Part shown: positions 1,383-41,057 of the stretch, one piece after another
Numbering within the stretch: position 1 is the stretch's first letter
Layout: the number at the start of each line of letters is the position of its first letter
Origin: Armatimonadota bacterium
Lineage (GTDB): Bacteria; Armatimonadota; HRBIN16
Reading direction: 5' to 3'
DNA: 64,000 nucleotides
NCBI GenBank assembly: GCA_963677485.1
Contig: OY781964.1
Span: forward strand, 3,264,001 to 3,328,000
Notes under the pieces: model-generated
What the model saw: only the letters and a program-made list of their open reading frames with translations
Told to the model about the DNA's origin: nothing
Database searches by the model: none
Translations under genes and position numbers: made by a program

Positions 1383-1447
1383 CCCACAATGCCGATGTAT
1401 ATCCCAGAATCATAGGCGATTTCGCGACTTTGTAAGTGGCTTGGTTG

Positions 1448-1900
1448 GCTATGTCCGGGGCGGTCTGTCAGTACGCCTGCGGAGGCCACTGTCTGTAGAC
1501 CGCGCCGGTCTGGTTCCTGACACAAATCTATCAGGCCTATCCGCCAGACCGGCGCGGTCTTGAGCCTTCTGCATCCGCTAGCCTACGCACAGACCGCCCC
1601 GGACATAGGCAACACGTGACTGCAATAAGGGCGAGCAGCCAACTCTTACATCGCTCTGTCGCTTCAGCGTGACGCATCAGTTACACCATGGGCTGCCGTG
1701 CAGGTACGGACGGGTGCTTGTTCCTGACACAGATCTTTCATGGCTATCCGCCAGACCGGCGCGGTCTTGAGCCTTCTGCATCCGCTAACCTTCTCACAGA
1801 CCGCCCCGGACATAGGCAACACGTGACTGCAATAAGGGCGAACAGCCAACTCGAACATCACTCTGTCGCCTCAGTTACCGCCTGGGCTACCGTGAATGCA
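1448..1900. repeat. nested-palindrome REP/REPIN-like element plus a ~200 bp tandem duplication
   Basis: GTCCGGGGCGGT (1453) ... ACCGCCCCGGACATAGGC (to 1610) with inner ACCGCGCCGGTCT/AGACCGGCGCGGT; ~1514-1700 is repeated at ~1721-1900. Confidence 0.8.
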
Positions 1901-1996
1901 CGGGCTGTCGCTTGTTGTTCAGGAGCCGAGACGTTTATGTCGCCGCATTCGAATATGCGGGACCGGCTTGAGTGAAATCAAGCCAGCCTAAAGAAC

Positions 1997-2034
1997 AAAA
2001 AAGGCGGGGAGCAGATTTGTCTGCTCCCCGCCTT
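1997..2034 (-). terminator. Rho-independent terminator of the transporter gene
   Basis: Perfect 15-bp stem AAGGCGGGGAGCAGA / TCTGCTCCCCGCCTT with a 4-nt loop, followed by a T-run on the minus strand, ~20 bp after the stop. Confidence 0.85.
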
Positions 2035-2052
2035 CTAGATGATCGAGCCGGG

Positions 2053-3930
2053 TTATTTCGCGGCTTTAGCGGCGAAGTTCACCACGCTGTAGAGTATCGG
2101 CGCAAGAAACTGCACAAATACCACCTTGAGAATGGTTGCAATCGGGTAGACGCTGGACCATCCTAACACAGGCAGCTCACTTCGCGTTTGCGATATGGAG
2201 GCACCCAGTGCAGGAGGGTTCGTCATGCAGGCCGCCAATGCGCCGCTGGTAGTCAGCCACCGGAGGCGGAATATCACCAGCATGGTGACCAGCGTGAGAA
2301 TCCAGCAGACTGTGGTGACCGCTGCGCCGGCACCGACCAGGCTCCAGCCGTATTTGCTGAACACATCCGCGAATTTAGCTCCACCATCCAGACCGGCTCC
2401 GGCCAGGAACAGCATCAAGCCAAACTCCTTGCAGAAGTTTGCGGCAGCGGTTGGGACGTGAAGGTGCCATGGGCCCACTTTACCGTAGTAACCAAATACC
2501 AGCGATATGAGGAATGCGCCTCCCGCCGTGCTGAGTGTGATCGAACTTGCGCCGATCGGGAACTCTTGCACGCCGATAAACACACCGATGAGCAGACCTG
2601 CCAGGAAAGGCAGGAAGCTGGTCTCTTCGGCGGTATGGGCTCCGCCCTCTAGACGCTTGGTCACTTCAACAACGCCTTCACGCTCACCTACGATGCACAG
2701 GTTGTCATTGTGCATCAACTCACTGGAGCCTGTGGGGGTTAGCTCCGCACCCTGACGTCGGATACGGGTGACTGTTACACCAAATCGGTTGAACAGGTCA
2801 AGCTCGGCTAGCGTTTTATTAGCATATTTCAGTGACAGCAGATCAAGGTCAACGGATACCACGTTGGGGTTTGTGTGCCAATGGGTTTCGCACTCTTCGC
2901 CGATCAACAGACCGAGCTTATCGAGCTCACCCGCTTCGCCTACAGCCAGAAGGATGTCGTCAGTCTTGATGACAAAGGTGGCTGTGGTGCTGTGTACCTC
3001 GTCACCGCGTCGGACCCGGCTGATATTGACATTGATATGTCGGTCGGGGTTAATCTGTGTGATGGTCTTTCCATCTATCATGCTGTTGGTCACACGGAAC
3101 GCACGCCGGGCCAGATGCCCTTTGCCTGCGCGTCGCTCCACATCCCAGCTCTGCTCTTCCTTCTTGAAATCGCGTTTTAGAAGTTTGGGCAGTAGTTGGA
3201 TGAGCAGCACCGTGCCTACCATACTGAAGGGATATGCCAGCGCGTAACCGGCTACTGCGTTACCGCTTTTGATACCCCAGGCCGCGGCACTGGGCAACGC
3301 GTCCAGCACCGGCTTGGCAGCGCCCAATGCGGGGGTGTTCGTCATGGCACCGCAGAATAAACCCGTGGCGATATCCGGGGGAAGCTTCATCACGATCGCA
3401 GCAATGACGACCACAGCCATCGCAGAAAAAACACTCACAGCCGTGATCGTAAGGAATTTCAGGCCGGAACGCTTGAAGGTTCGGATGAACGCAGGACCAG
3501 CTTGCAGGCCGACCGCATACAGGAAGATCAGCAGACCTACGGTCTTCAGGTCTTCGAGTTCGATGATCTCCTTGATATGGTCCGCACTAACGACCTTCTT
3601 CACCTCAGCTTTGGTGATGCTGGTTGTTGCGGCAGGCTCGGTCTTAGCAGCCTCAAGTTGCGCCTTGGCGGCGATATCCTTGAGGTCCGCTTTCGGGGTG
3701 ATCTTGAGCTGCAGCTCTATTGCTTTGATAGAGGGTTCAGGTATGCCGCGTACCACGGCATCGGGTAACACGTTTTGGCACAGATGGCCGAAGACCAGTG
3801 CGATCAGCAGAACCAGAGTGGTTCCTAACGAGATGCCTTTTATTTTGAACCGCCCCAGCCAAATTCCTAAGGCCAGGATCAGGAAAAGCACAAAGTACTT
3901 CTTTCCGAACAGGAAAACGAGATATTCCAT
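2053..3930 (-). CDS. AspT/YidE/YbjL-family transporter with two TrkA-C domains
   Basis: GLLIFLYAVGLQAGPAF, GAMTNTPALGAA, two TrkA-C-like segments, second repeat ACMTNPPAL; AGGAGG RBS before the ATG at 3930. Confidence 0.9.
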   Translation of the reverse strand: MEYLVFLFGKKYFVLFLILALGIWLGRFKIKGISLGTTLVLLIALVFGHLCQNVLPDAVVRGIPEPSIKAIELQLKITPKADLKDIAAKAQLEAAKTEPAATTSITKAEVKKVVSADHIKEIIELEDLKTVGLLIFLYAVGLQAGPAFIRTFKRSGLKFLTITAVSVFSAMAVVVIAAIVMKLPPDIATGLFCGAMTNTPALGAAKPVLDALPSAAAWGIKSGNAVAGYALAYPFSMVGTVLLIQLLPKLLKRDFKKEEQSWDVERRAGKGHLARRAFRVTNSMIDGKTITQINPDRHINVNISRVRRGDEVHSTTATFVIKTDDILLAVGEAGELDKLGLLIGEECETHWHTNPNVVSVDLDLLSLKYANKTLAELDLFNRFGVTVTRIRRQGAELTPTGSSELMHNDNLCIVGEREGVVEVTKRLEGGAHTAEETSFLPFLAGLLIGVFIGVQEFPIGASSITLSTAGGAFLISLVFGYYGKVGPWHLHVPTAAANFCKEFGLMLFLAGAGLDGGAKFADVFSKYGWSLVGAGAAVTTVCWILTLVTMLVIFRLRWLTTSGALAACMTNPPALGASISQTRSELPVLGWSSVYPIATILKVVFVQFLAPILYSVVNFAAKAAK

Positions 3931-36680: not shown

Positions 36681-37565
36681 ATGATCAAAAAAGGCATTAT
36701 TCTGGCCGGAGGATCGGGCACACGCCTGTATCCGCTCACTCGGGTGGTCAGTAAACAACTGATGCCCATCTATAACAAACCGCTGATTTATTACCCGCTG
36801 TGCAGCCTATTGCTGGCCGGGATCACCGAGGTTCTGGTGATCAACACCCCTGAGGACAGCGCGCTGTTTCAGAGGCTGTTAGGCGATGGTTCGGAGTGGG
36901 GCATCAAGATCGAATATGCCGTGCAGCCTGCCCCAGAGGGTCTAGCCCAGGCGTTCATCATCGGTGAGGATTTTATCGGCGGTGAGGGCTGTGCGCTGGT
37001 GCTGGGCGACAACATCTTCTTTGGCCACGGTCTGCCCGAGCAGCTTATTAAAGCCACCGCGCAGCCCCAGGGGGCCACTGTCTTTGCCTATTACGTACGT
37101 GACCCTCAGCGTTATGGCGTGGTGGAGTTTGATGCCGATGGCAAGGCCATCAGCATTGAAGAGAAGCCGATCAAACCACGGAGCAACTGGGCGGTGACCG
37201 GCCTCTACTTCTATGACAAGCGCGTGGTGGAGATCGCCAAAAACCTGAAGCCCAGCCCCCGCGGCGAGCTGGAGATTACCGATGTGAATGCCACCTACCT
37301 GCAGATGGGGGAGTTGAGCGTGCAGAAGCTGGGACGCGGGATCGCTTGGCTGGACACCGGTACCCACGAGTCATTACTGCAGGCCGCTGATTTTGTGCAG
37401 ACGGTCGAAGAGCGGCAGGGCATGATGATCTGCTGCCCGGAGGAGATCGCCTGGCGCAAGGGGCTCATCAGCGATGAACAGTTGCGTAAACTGGCCGCTC
37501 CGCTGGCGAAGAACGACTACGGCCACTATCTACTAGAGATGGTCGACAGGGGGATACACGGATGA
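36681..37565 (+). CDS. rfbA: glucose-1-phosphate thymidylyltransferase
   Basis: [42 protein letters not shown]. Confidence 0.96.
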
Positions 37566-38113
37566 ACATCATCGAAACGCCCATCCCCGGTGCCGTGGTG
37601 ATTGAGCCGAAAGTGTTCGGTGACGCCCGTGGGTTCTTCTTTGAGAGCTACAGCCAGCAGCGGTATTCGGAACACGGTCTGAACGTGTCGTTCGTGCAGG
37701 ACAATGTCTCCTTCAGCCGCCGCGGTGTGTTGCGAGGTCTGCACTTTCAAAAGCCGTTTACTCAGACCAAACTTGTACAGGTGCTGCAGGGCGAGGTTTT
37801 TGATGTGGCGGTGGACTTGCGCGTGAGCTCGCCGGCGTTCGGAAAGTGGCATGGCGTGCTGCTCACCGCAGAGGCACACAACCAGTTCTACGTGCCGCAA
37901 GGATGCGCCCACGGCTTTGTGGTGCTCAGCGAAACCGCGCTGTTCAGCTACAAGTGCGATGATTACTACCATCCCGAGTGCGAGGGCGGCGTCATCTGGA
38001 ACGACCCCGAGATCGGCATTATCTGGCCCATCACCGACGTCCAGCTCAGCGAGAAGGACACCAAGCTGCCGCGCTTGAGTCAATTGCCAACGGAGCGGCT
38101 GTTCCGGTTTTAG
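37562..38113 (+). CDS. rfbC: dTDP-4-dehydrorhamnose 3,5-epimerase
   Basis: [37 protein letters not shown]. Confidence 0.96.
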
Positions 38114-38280
38114 GGGATTCATCTCACGCGGCACCGCAGGTGACGACGCGGAGGGGGTTTTATCCACAGATTACGCAGATTGCGCAGATTAGGTAGTGTC
38201 CGGGCGGTTTTTCGGCACACACGCGCTTCGACAATACAGGTAAATGGATATACGGTAAGGTTTGTAGATACTGTGGCTTT

Positions 38281-38286
38281 TGTCAA
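38281..38286 (-). promoter_or_regulatory. outward-facing -35 box (TTGACA) at the IS110 right end
   Basis: Lies exactly 17 bp from TACGCT (40075-40070) once the ends are joined at the CT core. Confidence 0.75.
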
Positions 38287-38538
38287 GTCCCCAGGGGCAA
38301 ATCTGGGGATTTGGACCTGAATATCAGACACTGGCTCTAGACCACGTAGAATAACGTTAATGTGATGTTTGTGGCATATAGACCAAACCTGGATCCGCGA
38401 CAGAAACAGGCTCAGATGGCATCAGTTGGTCCGTAGCACCTCACATGACGCTCGGAGTCGCGAACGGACGTGCGACATCTTCGTGGCTTCGAAAGATATC
38501 GTTATGCTTCGATGCGTGCTATCGGCAGACTGCCGCAG

Positions 38539-39831
38539 CTAGGATACTGGTGTCAGAACCCTCGGTTTGTTGCCCACCCGACTGCGCGATGGCCGGTTTC
38601 GGGATGCGGGCCGACCACCGCCGGCAGGAGTGGGCTCATTGGTGGGATTTCCATCCACGCATCCCCGTCTTGGAACGCTCACGTCCAGCCCAGGATCATT
38701 GCCTACACCGGCTATATCATGGGCCGCTCCGGCACGATCCTGGACATGTCCGTTCGCGTCGGTCAGCGGTTGCTGGTTGGCCGCATTTGAAGCTTGTTCG
38801 ATGCCGAAGTTTGGATCATATGGCTGACGGCTGATTAATACCGACCACATGAGCACCAGCTGCTTGCGCATGATTGCGCGCCGGACAACTCGCTTGGACT
38901 TCGGTTTCTTATTGGGATTCTTTACCAAATTCGGATGCTGCAGTTCCTTCACGAAGTCGTGCATGCTCTGGCCAAGCTTTTTCGACTTACCGTTGACCAT
39001 CTTCACCACAGTGCTCGATCCACAGTAGAGTAATGTCCGCATATATCGGTCACCCATCTTGGATATGGAGCCGTCGTATGTCTTGCAGCTTCCTGACCGT
39101 TGCGGGCAGGGGTTCATTCCGAAATAGCGCGCGACCGCTTTCGATGTTTCAAATCGTTTAGCATCACCGATTTTCGCAAGGAAATAGCTTGCTGTGACGT
39201 CGCCGATACCCGGAATGCTCTTCAGCAGAGCCATATCTTCGGTCATCTGCGGTGAACTCATCACAAGCTCTTTGATCTGAACATCAAGCTTTTTGATGCC
39301 CATGTCATGAAAAGCGATCATCTCGTCCAGCACTGTGCTCCGCGTAAGCCGACAGCTTTGGCGCTGGGCGATCGCCTGTCTGTGTTGCACCAGCATACGG
39401 CGGTCATTGGTGTAACCAATAAGCGCATCATAGCATGCTAGACGAGGGACATAGAGTGAGACATTGTGACTTTTCACATAGTCAGCGATTAGCACGCTGT
39501 CAGAGCAGTCCGTCTTTTGTTCCCAGCCTTTGGCTTTGCGGTGATAGAGAACCCGTTTTGGCTCCAGTTGGACAGCATCGTGCTGGTGCTCGTAGAGGTA
39601 ATCAAGCAGCGGTCGGCTGTAAGGCCCGGTGGCTTCAGCCGCATACAAGGCGGGAGTTCGGGTAAGCTTCTTCACCCATGACAACAACTCCTTGTATCCG
39701 GCCTTGTTGTTCTTGAACTCCTTATGGTCTATCGGCTTGTGCGATGAACCTAATACAGACGCGTCAAACGTCAATTTCGAGATGTCGATCCCGACATAAT
39801 GGATGTAGATTTTGTCTTCAACTTCGTGCAT
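38539..39831 (-). CDS. IS110 DEDD recombinase/transposase
   Basis: YVGIDISK, EATG and KTDCSD (DEDD tetrad); SIPGIG, GMNPCPQRSG (catalytic Ser), ISKMGDRYMR; likely ATG at 39831 after GGAG. Confidence 0.95.
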   Translation of the reverse strand: MHEVEDKIYIHYVGIDISKLTFDASVLGSSHKPIDHKEFKNNKAGYKELLSWVKKLTRTPALYAAEATGPYSRPLLDYLYEHQHDAVQLEPKRVLYHRKAKGWEQKTDCSDSVLIADYVKSHNVSLYVPRLACYDALIGYTNDRRMLVQHRQAIAQRQSCRLTRSTVLDEMIAFHDMGIKKLDVQIKELVMSSPQMTEDMALLKSIPGIGDVTASYFLAKIGDAKRFETSKAVARYFGMNPCPQRSGSCKTYDGSISKMGDRYMRTLLYCGSSTVVKMVNGKSKKLGQSMHDFVKELQHPNLVKNPNKKPKSKRVVRRAIMRKQLVLMWSVLISRQPYDPNFGIEQASNAANQQPLTDANGHVQDRAGAAHDIAGVGNDPGLDVSVPRRGCVDGNPTNEPTPAGGGRPASRNRPSRSRVGNKPRVLTPVS

Positions 39832-39864
39832 GTGGTAATCTCCAGTTGGTAGTGATTGATGGTG

Positions 39865-40063
39865 CAATCAACCAAATCAGCCTAGCGAACACGGGGTTTT
39901 CTCCCAAGATACTGTTCGATATGGGTTGATTGGGAGAAGGATGCCTATCTACGTCACGGTGTTTTCCACCAGGGGCGGTTCCGGCATCCAATCCTTCTCC
40001 TTCACCCCCAGCTAAGGGGTGAGATTAGCTCCCCGACTGCTTTTGGTGTCCGGGGAGCTCACC
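39865..40063 (-). ncRNA. predicted IS110 bridge RNA
   Basis: 5' hairpin at 40027-40060; target loop closed by GGAGAAGGAT/ATCCTTCTCC with guides ACCGCCCCT and CGTAG; donor loop closed by CAATCAACC/GGTTGATTG with guides ACAGTATCT and CTAG; the guides match the element's own flanks and junction. Confidence 0.85.
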
Positions 40064-40433
40064 ATATATAGCGTACTAGGGGCGGTTCGAGAACCGCCCT
40101 TCTTGCGTCGAGGGGTAGCCACGCCCCTGGCGGTTGGCATAGGGAATATCATCCACGGATGACGCAGATTACACAGATTAGGTCATGACCGGGGCGGTTT
40201 CTCAGAGCACTATCAAACGCCCTGCAGCCCGTCTCCGGCGCGGTCTGGCGGACAGCCCGTTGCCGATGCCCCTGGCGTCAGGATACCCGTTGACAACCAA
40301 CACTTAAAAGGGTGTAACTAGACAGAGCAGACAAGCATAGCCATATCTCACTTGCGACAAACTAACGACAGCAAAACATCGATCAAAGCTGATCTTTGCA
40401 CCACTTTCAGTAACTACCAGGAGATATATCATT

Positions 40434-41057
40434 TTGAAAAACTTACCTACAGGAACAATCAGGCGTGCAAGAATAATGATCCCGATTGTCGCATTGTGCT
40501 TGATATGGCTCATCTATCATTCGTTGAGTGTACGTATATTTATTGATTTTCCAGGTGGTTATACTCTTTATAACAATGACTATGGCTTGACGATGACATA
40601 TGGATTGAAACCACAAAACAGAGATAGTGATACTAAGAATTGGCCTTATATCATGAGGATCGGCCCTAACATCGGCGGTTATCACGTCTACTCTAATGTA
40701 GTCGTAGGTATTATCACTTCATATGAGAGAGAGGATGATTACATCCGTGTCGGGTTCTCCGATATAGGGTGTGAAAGAAGGAAGGGCTACTTCATCATGG
40801 ATATCATCCACAAGAAAGTCTATGGTGGCCTAAGCAAGCGGGACTGGCTGGAGAAGCTGAAAACATACGGGATCACCACGGAACCAGCGTTGCATGAGCC
40901 CCACTGGTTGGACGAGTACTTCGGCGGAACAAACCATCAGATGCTCCTGGGCGATAGGCGAGTAGCTCCAGAGCATGAAGGATTCTGCCCTCGCTTGCTG
41001 GAAGCAGTTAATTGTGTTGGGATAACCATACTGTGCTATGGCCATATGACCGCCTAA
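40434..41057 (+). CDS. hypothetical exported/membrane-anchored protein, paralog 1 (3' frameshift extension)
   Basis: N-terminal TM; FPGGY, IGPN..GY.VYSN..VGI, GYFI.D and GGLSKRDWL shared with the next gene; low GC. Confidence 0.7.
   Translation: MKNLPTGTIRRARIMIPIVALCLIWLIYHSLSVRIFIDFPGGYTLYNNDYGLTMTYGLKPQNRDSDTKNWPYIMRIGPNIGGYHVYSNVVVGIITSYEREDDYIRVGFSDIGCERRKGYFIMDIIHKKVYGGLSKRDWLEKLKTYGITTEPALHEPHWLDEYFGGTNHQMLLGDRRVAPEHEGFCPRLLEAVNCVGITILCYGHMTA

What the first reader, a model, noticed from the sequence alone, without database searches (positions are those of the whole stretch)
38266..40079. IS110 bridge-recombination element whose RNA guides can be read directly and are programmed for a host REP palindrome
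Seen (minus strand): the ~230 nt non-coding end upstream of the DEDD recombinase folds into a 5' hairpin and two bipartite loops. Target-loop guides ACCGCCCCT (39979-39971) and CGTAG (39953-39949) match the reconstructed empty site ACCGCCC-CT-AC. Donor-loop guides ACAGTATCT (39915-39907) and CTAG (39885-39882) match the circle junction ACAGTAT-CT-AG. Known: this is the IS621-type bridge RNA architecture. Inference: a natural, probably active RNA-guided recombinase with its own target specificity, the REP GTAGGGGCGGTT.
Basis: partly seen in the sequence, partly recalled or inferred. Interest (0 to 1): 0.87.

Follow-up and report, generated by a model that had tools for sequence, protein, structure and literature searches.

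The report
IS110 bridge-RNA element targeting REP
This is a recently spread IS110-family jumping gene whose own small RNA carries readable copies of the host palindrome it inserts into and of its own ends, a well-supported but ordinary new member of the IS621-type bridge-recombinase kind.

Summary
Window 38266-40079 (minus strand) is an IS110-group insertion sequence: 1810 bp, with a CT at each junction. The genome holds 12 near-identical copies. Ten have an intact 430-aa DEDD/Ser recombinase; two share a 16-bp frameshift deletion.

All 12 copies sit at the 3' foot of a GC-rich REP-like palindrome. The left target is ACCGCCC in 6 of 12 and one mismatch away in 5 of 12. The core is CT in 12 of 12. 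The right target is AC in 11 of 12. A congeneric genome has the orthologous site empty.

The 5' non-coding end folds into 5' hairpin(s) plus two internal-loop stem-loops. The loop strands match the target and the element's own ends in IS621 geometry.

Four related lineages carry different left-target guides, and their insertion flanks change with them. The right-donor guide also co-varies with the left-end sequence.

A TTGACA, 17 bp, TACGCT promoter exists only across the circle junction.

Transcription and the circular form were not shown: only assembled contigs were available.

It is a new member of a known kind, of modest interest.

The parts
38266..40079 (-). Whole insertion sequence ('ISx1'): 1810 bp plus the CT core dinucleotide present at both junctions
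   Evidence: 12 copies with identical ends in the genome. Empty orthologous site in a congeneric genome. No terminal inverted repeats.
40080..40099 (-). Host REP-like palindrome (GGGCGGTTC-TC-GAACCGCCC). Its 3' arm is the left target.
   Evidence: Read. The same palindrome family lies left of 12 of 12 copies. 228 empty CGCCCCTAC sites in the genome, 111 of them next to a perfect hairpin of at least 5 bp.
38264..38265 (-). Right target dinucleotide AC
   Evidence: AC in 11 of 12 copies, AT in 1.
40070..40075 (-). -10-like hexamer TACGCT in the left end. It works only with the -35 of the right end after circularisation.
   Evidence: Computed across the junction. A 17-bp spacer is conserved in three lineages. 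No promoter-like site on this strand in the integrated context.
38281..38286 (-). -35 hexamer TTGACA in the right end, 15 nt from the end of the core
   Evidence: Same position in ISx1, ISx2 and ISx3.
40003..40063 (-). 5' stem-loop region of the predicted bridge RNA (one long hairpin or two). The inferred transcription start is near 40063.
   Evidence: Fold. Helix 1 has 4 compensatory pairs. The start site is inferred from the -10 position and was not observed.
39933..40000 (-). Target-binding stem-loop (outer stem 40000-39991 with 39942-39933)
   Evidence: helices 2-4: 93-100% of cells paired, 5 compensatory pairs. inverted repeat I19.
39971..39979 (-). Left target guide ACCGCCC+CU. In this copy the match to the flank runs 11 nt, 39981-39971.
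   Evidence: It co-varies with the flank in five lineages.
39947..39953 (-). Right target guide (C)GUAG at 39953-39949, followed by handshake dinucleotide AU at 39948-39947
   Evidence: GUAG is complementary to CT+AC. AU is complementary to donor positions 6-7 (AT), as described for IS621 in passages of PMC11208158.
39865..39932 (-). Donor-binding stem-loop (outer stem 39932-39924 with 39873-39865)
   Evidence: helices 5-6.
39907..39915 (-). Left donor guide ACAGUAU+CU, identical to the right-end terminus plus core
39880..39892 (-). Right donor guide GUGU-UC-GCUAG (39892-39882). It pairs discontiguously with core plus left-end start (CT+AGT, then ACGC). Handshake GC follows at 39881-39880.
   Evidence: My reading of the alignments. 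Two positions change on both the RNA side and the DNA side between ISx1 and ISx2.
38539..39831 (-). Recombinase gene: 430 aa, ATG at 39831, stop included. DEDD RuvC-like domain, then the Ser-bearing Tnp domain, then a C-terminal extension of about 90 aa.
   Evidence: Pfam PF01548 and PF02371. Alignment to IS621 chain 8wt6. Relatives start at the same Met.
38268..38538 (-). Right-end non-coding region, 271 nt. It holds the -35 box and a hairpin just upstream of it. It is otherwise unexplained.
   Evidence: z = -2.0; I11. No word of 9 nt or more there matches the target or donor, apart from the end itself.

Best explanation
This is an autonomous IS110-group insertion sequence that moves by bridge-RNA-guided recombination, as IS621 does.

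Inferred cycle:
1. The element excises as a circle.
2. Joining the right end to the left end brings a TTGACA box 17 bp from a TACGCT box. This switches on transcription of a roughly 200-nt RNA from the left end (about 40063-39865) and of the recombinase gene behind it.
3. The RNA has two internal loops.
   - The first loop reads the host site. [quoted passage not shown] GUAG pairs with the top strand CT+AC.
   - The second loop reads the circle junction. ACAGUAU+CU pairs with the right-end terminus. GUGU..GCUAG pairs with CT+AGTACGC of the left end.
4. A DEDD/Ser recombinase tetramer exchanges strands at the shared CT core.

The preferred site is the 3' foot of one subfamily of a GC-rich REP-like palindrome.

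Shown here: element boundaries, copy number, site preference, RNA fold with compensatory changes, guide-to-flank covariation in five lineages, conserved catalytic residues, and junction promoter hexamers.

Inferred: transcription, the circle, RNA-protein binding and present-day activity.
For: Copies and ends:
- There are 12 full-length copies. The first 250 nt are identical in all of them.
- The ends are the same in 12 of 12.
- Left-target mismatches to the guide: 0 in 6 copies, 1 in 5 copies, 3 in 1 copy. Core is CT in 12 of 12. Right target is AC in 11 of 12.

Site occupancy among N7-CTAC sites:
- perfect match: 6 occupied, 3 empty
- one mismatch: 5 occupied (one of these has right target AT), 144 empty
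- two mismatches: 0 occupied, 584 empty
- three mismatches: 1 occupied, 1985 empty

Empty orthologous site in a congeneric genome.

Related lineages, guide against flanks:
- ISx2: guide CGCGCCC; flanks CGCGCCC and CCTGCCC
- ISx3: guide GUCAUCC; flank GTCATCC in 6 of 8 copies, one mismatch in 2 of 8
- L108: one mismatch
- L110: one mismatch, of the rG:dT type

Donor side. The left-end start differs between ISx1 (AGTACGC) and ISx2/ISx3 (TGTATGC), and the right donor guide changes to match.

Structure. 93.9% of cells are paired. Eleven pairs change on both sides (0 of 500 shuffles reach this). Sliding the 3' partners by 1-3 columns gives 0-4 such pairs.

Protein.

Junction promoter. It is conserved in three lineages. 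No promoter-like site was found on this strand in the integrated context.

Covariance model. A model of the two loops finds 7 of 98 distant IS110 loci at E <= 1 (4 at E <= 1e-3). All 7 hits lie on the coding strand just upstream of the recombinase gene.

Published rules. IS621 geometry (9-nt left guide, 4-nt right guide, 11-bp target ATCAGGCCTAC, CT core, discontiguous right donor guide, handshake guides, junction promoter) comes from passages of PMC11208160 and PMC11208158.
Against: - No direct evidence of the RNA or the circle. Only assembled contigs could be laid, and no joint linking 38266 back to 40079 appeared.
- Contigs from two RNA libraries cover the left end of close relatives, but they run on into REP-like flank. 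They could equally be read-through or DNA.
- Rfam gave 0 matches at E <= 1.
- One insertion (L003) has 3 mismatches to the guide in the ungapped register.
- The empty site in the relative has one extra C.
- The window copy and one other carry R318. The other 8 intact copies and all 7 relatives have C there.
- Left donor guides of ISx2 and ISx3 do not pair with the second core base. The ISx3 guide also mismatches donor position 7.
- One relative (L111) lacks the left end altogether.
- Covariation rests on five lineages, four of them close to each other.
Confidence: 0.9

Rival explanations
1. The element is an IS110-family IS whose ends and target are read by the protein alone. On this view the internal copies of the target and end words are chance matches, or relics of captured REP sequence, and not guides.
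For: A single 9-mer match in 238 nt is not very rare: 19 of 2000 shuffles reach it for the donor word. The target word is C-rich, like much of this genome's REP content. No RNA was observed.
Against: Both words lie on the 5' strands of the two internal loops. Their partners lie on the 3' strands, in IS621 geometry. In four other lineages the loop word differs and the flank differs with it. The right donor guide changes together with the left-end start. Stems around the loops are kept through compensatory changes.
Confidence: 0.03
2. The family is a genuine bridge-RNA IS but is now silent in this genome. The 12 copies would be a past burst, and the window copy itself, with its R318 variant, is not competent.
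For: Two of 12 copies are frameshifted. The window copy and L002 differ from the family consensus at residue 318. Three perfect target sites remain empty. No circle junction was seen in contigs.
Against: Across 1814 bp only 6 positions vary among the 12 copies. Ten ORFs are intact. Guides are identical in all copies. Contigs drop rare variants, so a missing circle joint says little.
Confidence: 0.2
3. This is an IS1111-type element whose guide RNA (seekRNA) lies in the long right end rather than the left end.
For: The right non-coding end (271 nt) is slightly longer than the left one (246 nt). That is unusual for the IS110 group, going by the passage of PMC11208160 seen.
Against: No word of 9 nt or more in the right end matches the target or donor. 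There are no subterminal inverted repeats. The right-end fold is unremarkable, z = -2.0. The left end holds all four guides.
Confidence: 0.02

Closest known systems
IS621 of Escherichia coli (IS110 group; bridge recombinase with bridge RNA)
   Same: Two-domain DEDD/Ser recombinase with all five catalytic residues aligned. RNA encoded in the left end with target and donor loops. 7+2+2 target geometry, CT core and right target AC (IS621 target ATCAGGCCTAC). Discontiguous right donor guide. Handshake A after GUAG. Junction promoter. Insertion into REP elements.
   Different: About 30% protein identity over the core. 430 aa against 326-328 aa, because of a C-terminal tail of about 90 aa with no Pfam match and low model confidence. 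Left end 246 nt, with extra 5' hairpin material. Long 271-nt right end. Different left target word and different left-end start. No DNA similarity found in E. coli genomes.
ISPpu10 and ISPpu9 of Pseudomonas putida (REP-targeting IS110 elements)
   Same: Multi-copy IS110 elements. All insertions lie beside a GC-rich stem-loop in one conserved intergenic repeat (abstract of 10.64898/2026.03.19.712850; search listing of PMC12288879).
   Different: Different host, target word and guides. Whether the stem-loop acts here as a second specificity layer was not tested. No sequence comparison with these elements was made.
ISx2 and ISx3, the sister lineages found here (own genome and a 5.3-Mb congeneric assembly)
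   Same: 41-42% protein identity, the same C-terminal tail, the same RNA architecture, the same right-end terminus and core, and REP-like targets.
   Different: Different left target guides (CGCGCCC, GUCAUCC) and a different left-end start (TGTATGC) with a matching right donor guide. In effect these are natural re-programmings of the same scaffold.
IS1111 group (seekRNA in the right end)
   Same: Same recombinase family and the same idea of RNA-guided site choice.
   Different: The guides here are in the left end. There are no subterminal inverted repeats.

Membership tests
IS110 family, IS110 group (IS621-type bridge recombinase plus bridge RNA) | N-terminal DEDD RuvC-like domain plus C-terminal Tnp domain | tested here: met
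   PF01548 (E 1.8e-21, residues 13-158) and PF02371 (E 3.9e-22, residues 201-285).
IS110 family, IS110 group (IS621-type bridge recombinase plus bridge RNA) | Catalytic D, E, D, D and Ser present | tested here: met
   D16, E66, D108, D111 and S246 align with the IS621 residues that the paper numbers D11, E60, D102, D105 and S241 (chain numbering is +2).. All five are invariant in 8 of 8 aligned proteins.
IS110 family, IS110 group (IS621-type bridge recombinase plus bridge RNA) | No terminal inverted repeats; a dinucleotide core at both junctions | tested here: met
   CT at both ends in 12 of 12 copies. None of the 20 inverted-repeat pairs joins the two termini.
IS110 family, IS110 group (IS621-type bridge recombinase plus bridge RNA) | Structured non-coding RNA in the left end with two internal loops | tested here: met
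   Fold z = -3.8. Consensus fold. 11 compensatory pairs, 0 of 500 shuffles. Caveat: five sequences, and the structure was derived from them.
IS110 family, IS110 group (IS621-type bridge recombinase plus bridge RNA) | Target-loop strands complementary to the insertion site, and co-varying with it | tested here: met
   five lineages, and an occupancy gradient of 6/9, 5/149, 0/584, 1/1986.
IS110 family, IS110 group (IS621-type bridge recombinase plus bridge RNA) | Donor-loop strands complementary to the right-end and left-end termini | tested here: met
   9-nt left donor guide equals the right end plus core. The right donor guide co-varies with the left-end start between ISx1 and ISx2/ISx3.
IS110 family, IS110 group (IS621-type bridge recombinase plus bridge RNA) | Handshake guides 3' of the right guides, pairing with the non-cognate DNA | tested here: inconclusive
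   The first handshake base fits in all five lineages (A with donor T7, G with target C7). The second fits only in the ISx1 target loop. This is my reading against passages seen.
IS110 family, IS110 group (IS621-type bridge recombinase plus bridge RNA) | [quoted passage not shown] | tested here: met
   TTGACA, 17 bp, then TACGCT (ISx1) or TATGCT (ISx2, ISx3). None on this strand in the integrated state. Sequence evidence only.
IS110 family, IS110 group (IS621-type bridge recombinase plus bridge RNA) | RNA is made and a circular intermediate exists | tested here: inconclusive
   Only contigs could be laid. No circle joint was seen, and the RNA-library contigs of relatives are ambiguous.
IS110 family, IS110 group (IS621-type bridge recombinase plus bridge RNA) | Left non-coding end longer than the right one (typical of the group, not defining) | tested here: not met
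   246 nt against 271 nt.
IS110 family, IS110 group (IS621-type bridge recombinase plus bridge RNA) | Match to a curated RNA family model | tested here: inconclusive
   0 Rfam matches at E <= 1. I do not know whether Rfam 15 holds a bridge-RNA family. My own model finds 7 of 98 distant IS110 loci.
IS1111 group | Subterminal inverted repeats of 7-17 bp and a guide RNA in the right end | tested here: not met

The most novel reading that the evidence does not exclude
The ISx1/ISx2/ISx3 clade may be a distinct subtype of bridge recombinase. On this reading the conserved C-terminal tail of about 90 aa, possibly together with the extra 5' hairpin and the long right end, reads the REP stem-loop as a second, structural specificity layer, or couples transposition to a host factor. 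Site choice would then not be set by the two RNA loops alone.
Probability: 0.1. Interest if true: 0.5.

Novelty: new member of a known kind. Interest (0 to 1): 0.3.

Why it matters
It adds a naturally validated bridge recombinase about 30% identical to IS621. For this element the target word, donor word, core, junction promoter and tolerated mismatches can all be read from one genome.

Its sister lineages show the same scaffold re-aimed at other REP-like words, including a changed donor. That is useful for annotation: 12 'IS110 transposase' genes and their REP targets are explained. It also offers a candidate orthologue for bridge-editing work.

It does not change what is known. Durrant et al. 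predicted bridge RNAs in 85.7% of IS110-group elements in ISfinder (passage seen).

Tried and rejected
- Rfam scan of 37800-40500 at E <= 1: no match.
- Single-protein scan of genome contigs: 26 pattern hits, none related. The alignment-based scans did not return the closest relatives, P0001-P0005 (61-94% identity).
- blastn of the ISx2 left end plus 5' coding part against E. coli genomes, to reach IS621 DNA: no match. No direct RNA alignment with IS621 was therefore made.
- Read laying on X1, X3, X15 and X17, all assembled contigs.
  - The IS forms a 1820-nt contig at about 10 times the flank depth (117 against 12-15, and 154 against 9-15). That fits about 12 copies.
  - The listed joints all start or end in the short high-copy flank repeat, not at the IS ends.
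  - No circle junction and no excised allele was seen. This is not evidence of absence.
  - RNA-library contigs (X15 at 39712-40101, X17 at 39903-40102) are relatives, not this element. They do not show transcription.
- AlphaFold2 model on the 8-sequence alignment: mean pLDDT 59.7, with the tail 342-430 below 35. It was too poor for a fold search, so none was run.
- Pfam on the last 93 residues: nothing.
- Right end as a structured RNA: z = -2.0, not pursued.
- Extended right target guide beyond 5 nt: flanks do not fit in ISx1 or ISx3.
- Text search for the target or REP words in papers: 352 papers hold at least one word. The 10 listed are unrelated primer or promoter sequences, so I found no printed description by that route.
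- Supplements of the papers are closed. The catalogue of IS110 orthologues and predicted bridge RNAs of PMC11208160 may already list this element or its relatives.
- Rows left out:
  - L109 has the same sequence as ISx3, with its left flank cut at 14 nt by the contig end.
  - L111 has no left end. Both were kept out of the guide table.
  - L138-L142 were not searched with model R1 because of the 100-source limit.
  - The training lineages were not searched with R1.
Full report
WHAT IS THERE

On the minus strand of 38266-40079 lies an element with this layout:
- CT, then 246 nt of non-coding left end
- a 430-aa ORF (ATG at 39831; relatives begin at the same Met)
- 271 nt of non-coding right end, then CT

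The protein carries the two IS110 domains: PF01548 at residues 13-158 and PF02371 at residues 201-285. Its best solved relative is the IS621 recombinase (8wt6, E 2.3e-28), followed by ISCro4 (9t56). In that alignment D16, E66, D108, D111 and S246 stand opposite the IS621 residues that the structural paper names as catalytic (passages of PMC11208158). All five are invariant in the 8 aligned proteins. No inverted repeat joins the two termini.

COPIES AND BOUNDARIES

The genome (5.22 Mb, one contig) gives 16 matches. Twelve are full-length copies. The other four are partial matches that belong to two copies of a related element.

Variation among the 12 copies:
- Only 6 positions vary, plus one 16-bp deletion (39393-39378) shared by two copies.
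- The first 250 nt are identical in all 12.
- Ten ORFs are intact. Two are frameshifted.
- The window copy and one other have R318. Eight copies and all seven relatives have C there.

All 12 copies have the same ends and sit immediately 3' of a GC-rich palindrome of the type GGGCGGTTCGCGAACCGCCC.

The 7 nt left of the core are:
- ACCGCCC in 6 copies
- ATCGCCC in 3
- AACGCCC in 1
- CCCGCCC in 1
- CCGCCCC in 1

The core is CT in 12 of 12. The next two bases are AC in 11 copies and AT in 1.

A search of 30 related genomes found no listed match to the IS body outside this genome. One congeneric genome (G001) has the orthologous locus without the element. There the palindrome runs straight into CT and the same right flank, with one extra C in the C-run.

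THE RNA

The 248-nt left end folds with z = -3.8 into:
- 5' hairpin material (40063-40003)
- a first stem-loop (40000-39933) with a large internal loop
- a second stem-loop (39932-39865) of the same design

By the published rules for IS621 (9-nt left guide and 4-nt right guide, both including the core; 11-bp target; passages of PMC11208160), the loops read as follows.
- First loop: ACCGCCC-CT-AC.
- Second loop: the right-end terminus ACAGTAT plus CT, then the left-end start.
- After GUAG comes AU, complementary to donor positions 6-7.
- After the right donor guide comes G, complementary to target position 7.

The last two points match the handshake pattern described for IS621.

GUGU-UC-GCUAG (39892-39882) can pair with CT+AGT and then ACGC, leaving a 2-nt bulge. 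This is the same discontiguous pattern as in IS621: nine RNA bases against seven donor bases outside the core.

IS IT MORE THAN CHANCE?

One copy alone is suggestive only:
- Target 11-mer: 2 of 2000 shuffles reach it.
- Donor 9-mer: 19 of 2000 shuffles reach it.

The weight comes from comparison.

Relatives. The protein search found 734 relatives:
- five at 61-94% identity and the same length, whose DNA I could not fetch
- two at 41-42% identity
- the rest at 34% or less

The 41-42% clade was recovered as DNA:
- ISx2: two copies in this genome, one of them interrupted
- ISx3: eight copies in a 5.3-Mb congeneric assembly
- L108 and L110: metagenome contigs

Their left ends align with ISx1 at 87% mean column identity.

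Left target guide against flank:

| Lineage | Guide | Flanks |
|---|---|---|
| ISx1 | ACCGCCC | as listed above |
| ISx2 | CGCGCCC | CGCGCCC, CCTGCCC |
| ISx3 | GUCAUCC | GTCATCC in 6 of 8, one mismatch in 2 of 8 |
| L108 | GUGGCCC | GTTGCCC |
| L110 | CGUGCCC | CATGCCC (an rG:dT position) |

Donor side. All lineages keep the right-end terminus ACAGTAT-CT. The ISx2 clade starts its left end with TGTATGC. Its right donor guide reads GCAU-UU-ACAAG (AU in place of UU in ISx3 and L108). Compared with ISx1, two positions change on both the RNA and the DNA side.

Right target. The right target of the ISx2 clade is ACG in 11 of 12 copies, fitting CGUAG. In ISx1 the G is present in only 4 of 12.

Stems:
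- 49 pairs, with 93.9% of cells paired.
- Eleven pairs change on both sides. No shuffle out of 500 reaches this, and sliding the partners gives 0-4.
- Caveat: there are only five sequences, four of them close to each other, and the structure was derived from them.

Site use in the genome. Among all N7-CTAC words:
- perfect matches to the guide: 6 occupied, 3 empty
- one mismatch: 5 occupied (one with right target AT), 144 empty
- two mismatches: 0 occupied, 584 empty
- three mismatches: 1 occupied, 1985 empty

Tolerated mismatches lie at left-target positions 1-2, far from the core.

WIDER HOMOLOGY OF THE RNA

A covariance model of the two loops (R1) was run on 98 distant IS110 loci (21-40% best-segment protein identity). 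It found 7 hits at E <= 1, of which 4 at E <= 1e-3. All 7 lie on the coding strand and end 10-45 nt before the recombinase match.

I read one hit, L041, by eye. This is a single copy, and I inferred its boundary from the donor match, so it is a lead only. It shows the same logic with a TT core:
- The left donor guide matches the right end.
- The right target guide AACAAA is complementary to TT+TGTT.
- The right donor guide has the same 2-nt bulge.
- The left guide matches the flank in 7 of 9 positions.

EXPRESSION LOGIC

Across the joined ends, TTGACA (38286-38281) lies 17 bp from TACGCT (40075-40070). ISx2 and ISx3 have the same -35 box at the same distance, and TATGCT as the -10. In the integrated context, the consensus scan finds no promoter-like site on this strand. 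This matches the junction promoter reported for IS621. A transcription start near 40063 is inferred from it.

WHAT WAS NOT SHOWN

- Only Logan contigs were available.
  - They confirm the copy number: IS contig depth is about 10 times the flank depth.
  - They show neither a circle nor an excised site.
  - The RNA-library contigs belong to relatives and run on into flank.
- Rfam has no match.
- IS621 DNA could not be reached for a direct RNA alignment.
- One insertion (L003) fits the guide poorly: 3 mismatches in the ungapped register.
- Left donor guides of the ISx2 clade do not pair with the second core base.

COMPARISON AND NOVELTY

In every tested defining feature this is an IS110-group, IS621-type bridge element.

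It differs from IS621 in these respects:
- about 30% protein identity
- a conserved C-terminal tail of about 90 aa with no Pfam match and low model confidence
- extra 5' hairpin material
- a right end slightly longer than the left end

REP targeting by IS110 elements is known for IS621, and for ISPpu9 and ISPpu10 (search listing; abstract). The ISPpu10 preprint reports that a GC-rich stem-loop 5' of the target is a second specificity determinant. Here 12 of 12 insertions sit at the foot of such a stem-loop. Whether the stem-loop matters could not be tested.

Bridge RNAs were predicted in 85.7% of ISfinder IS110-group elements. This is therefore a new member of a known kind.

Noticed in passing
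window 40182-40151 and 38194-38162 (minus strand): A repeat of about 30 nt built of three 9-nt units (AATCTGCGT-like) flanks the IS on both sides. It is highly repeated: the two flank copies draw 43 and 82 blastn hits in this genome. It shows about 10-fold contig depth and many loose ends. A larger unit of about 110 nt around it has 13-15 copies. A congeneric genome carries it too.
   Followed up: partly
G000:C1:1296594-1298385 (L016 about 1429-3220); second copy from about G000:C1:2667675: A second, related bridge-RNA IS ('ISx2', about 1.8 kb, 41-42% protein identity). It has its own left target guide CGCGCCC and sits in a different REP-like subfamily. The genome holds 6 empty perfect sites for it.
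   Followed up: yes
G000:C1:2668304-2670866 (L143): The second ISx2 copy is interrupted by a 2563-bp IS21-family element. Its genes are IstA (rve plus Mu-transposase C-terminal domain, 519 aa) and IstB (PF01695, E 7e-67). About 6 bp of ISx2 sequence is duplicated at the insertion point.
   Followed up: yes
window 38539-38820 (minus strand), protein residues about 340-430: The C-terminal tail of the recombinase is conserved across the clade, with invariant N352, Q353, V363, Q364, R366, G377, N378 and C391 among others. It has no Pfam match, and pLDDT is below 35. Its function is unknown.
   Followed up: partly
window 38880 (codon 318): The window copy and L002 encode R318. The other 8 intact copies and all 7 aligned relatives have C. 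The assembled contigs of runs X1 and X3 carry the majority base.
   Followed up: partly
L111 1-1046: A 43%-identical recombinase gene whose upstream DNA shares only about the last 25 nt before the start codon with the clade's left end. It has no bridge-RNA region. It may be a truncated or rearranged copy.
   Followed up: no
window 38284-38313 (minus strand): An 11-bp-stem hairpin lies immediately upstream of the -35 box in the right end (I11). The rest of the 271-nt right end is partly conserved among ISx1, ISx2 and ISx3 and remains unexplained.
   Followed up: partly
L041 1240-1460 and 2520-2550: A distant IS110 element (27% protein identity, from a Prolixibacteraceae MAG). Read by eye, its predicted loops match its own ends and flank with a TT core instead of CT.
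   Followed up: partly
window 36681-38113 (plus strand): Two overlapping ORFs (294 and 183 aa) next to the IS look, from my reading of the translations only, like sugar-nucleotide (rhamnose pathway) enzymes. The IS lies in the intergenic repeat cluster downstream of them. No search was run.
   Followed up: no
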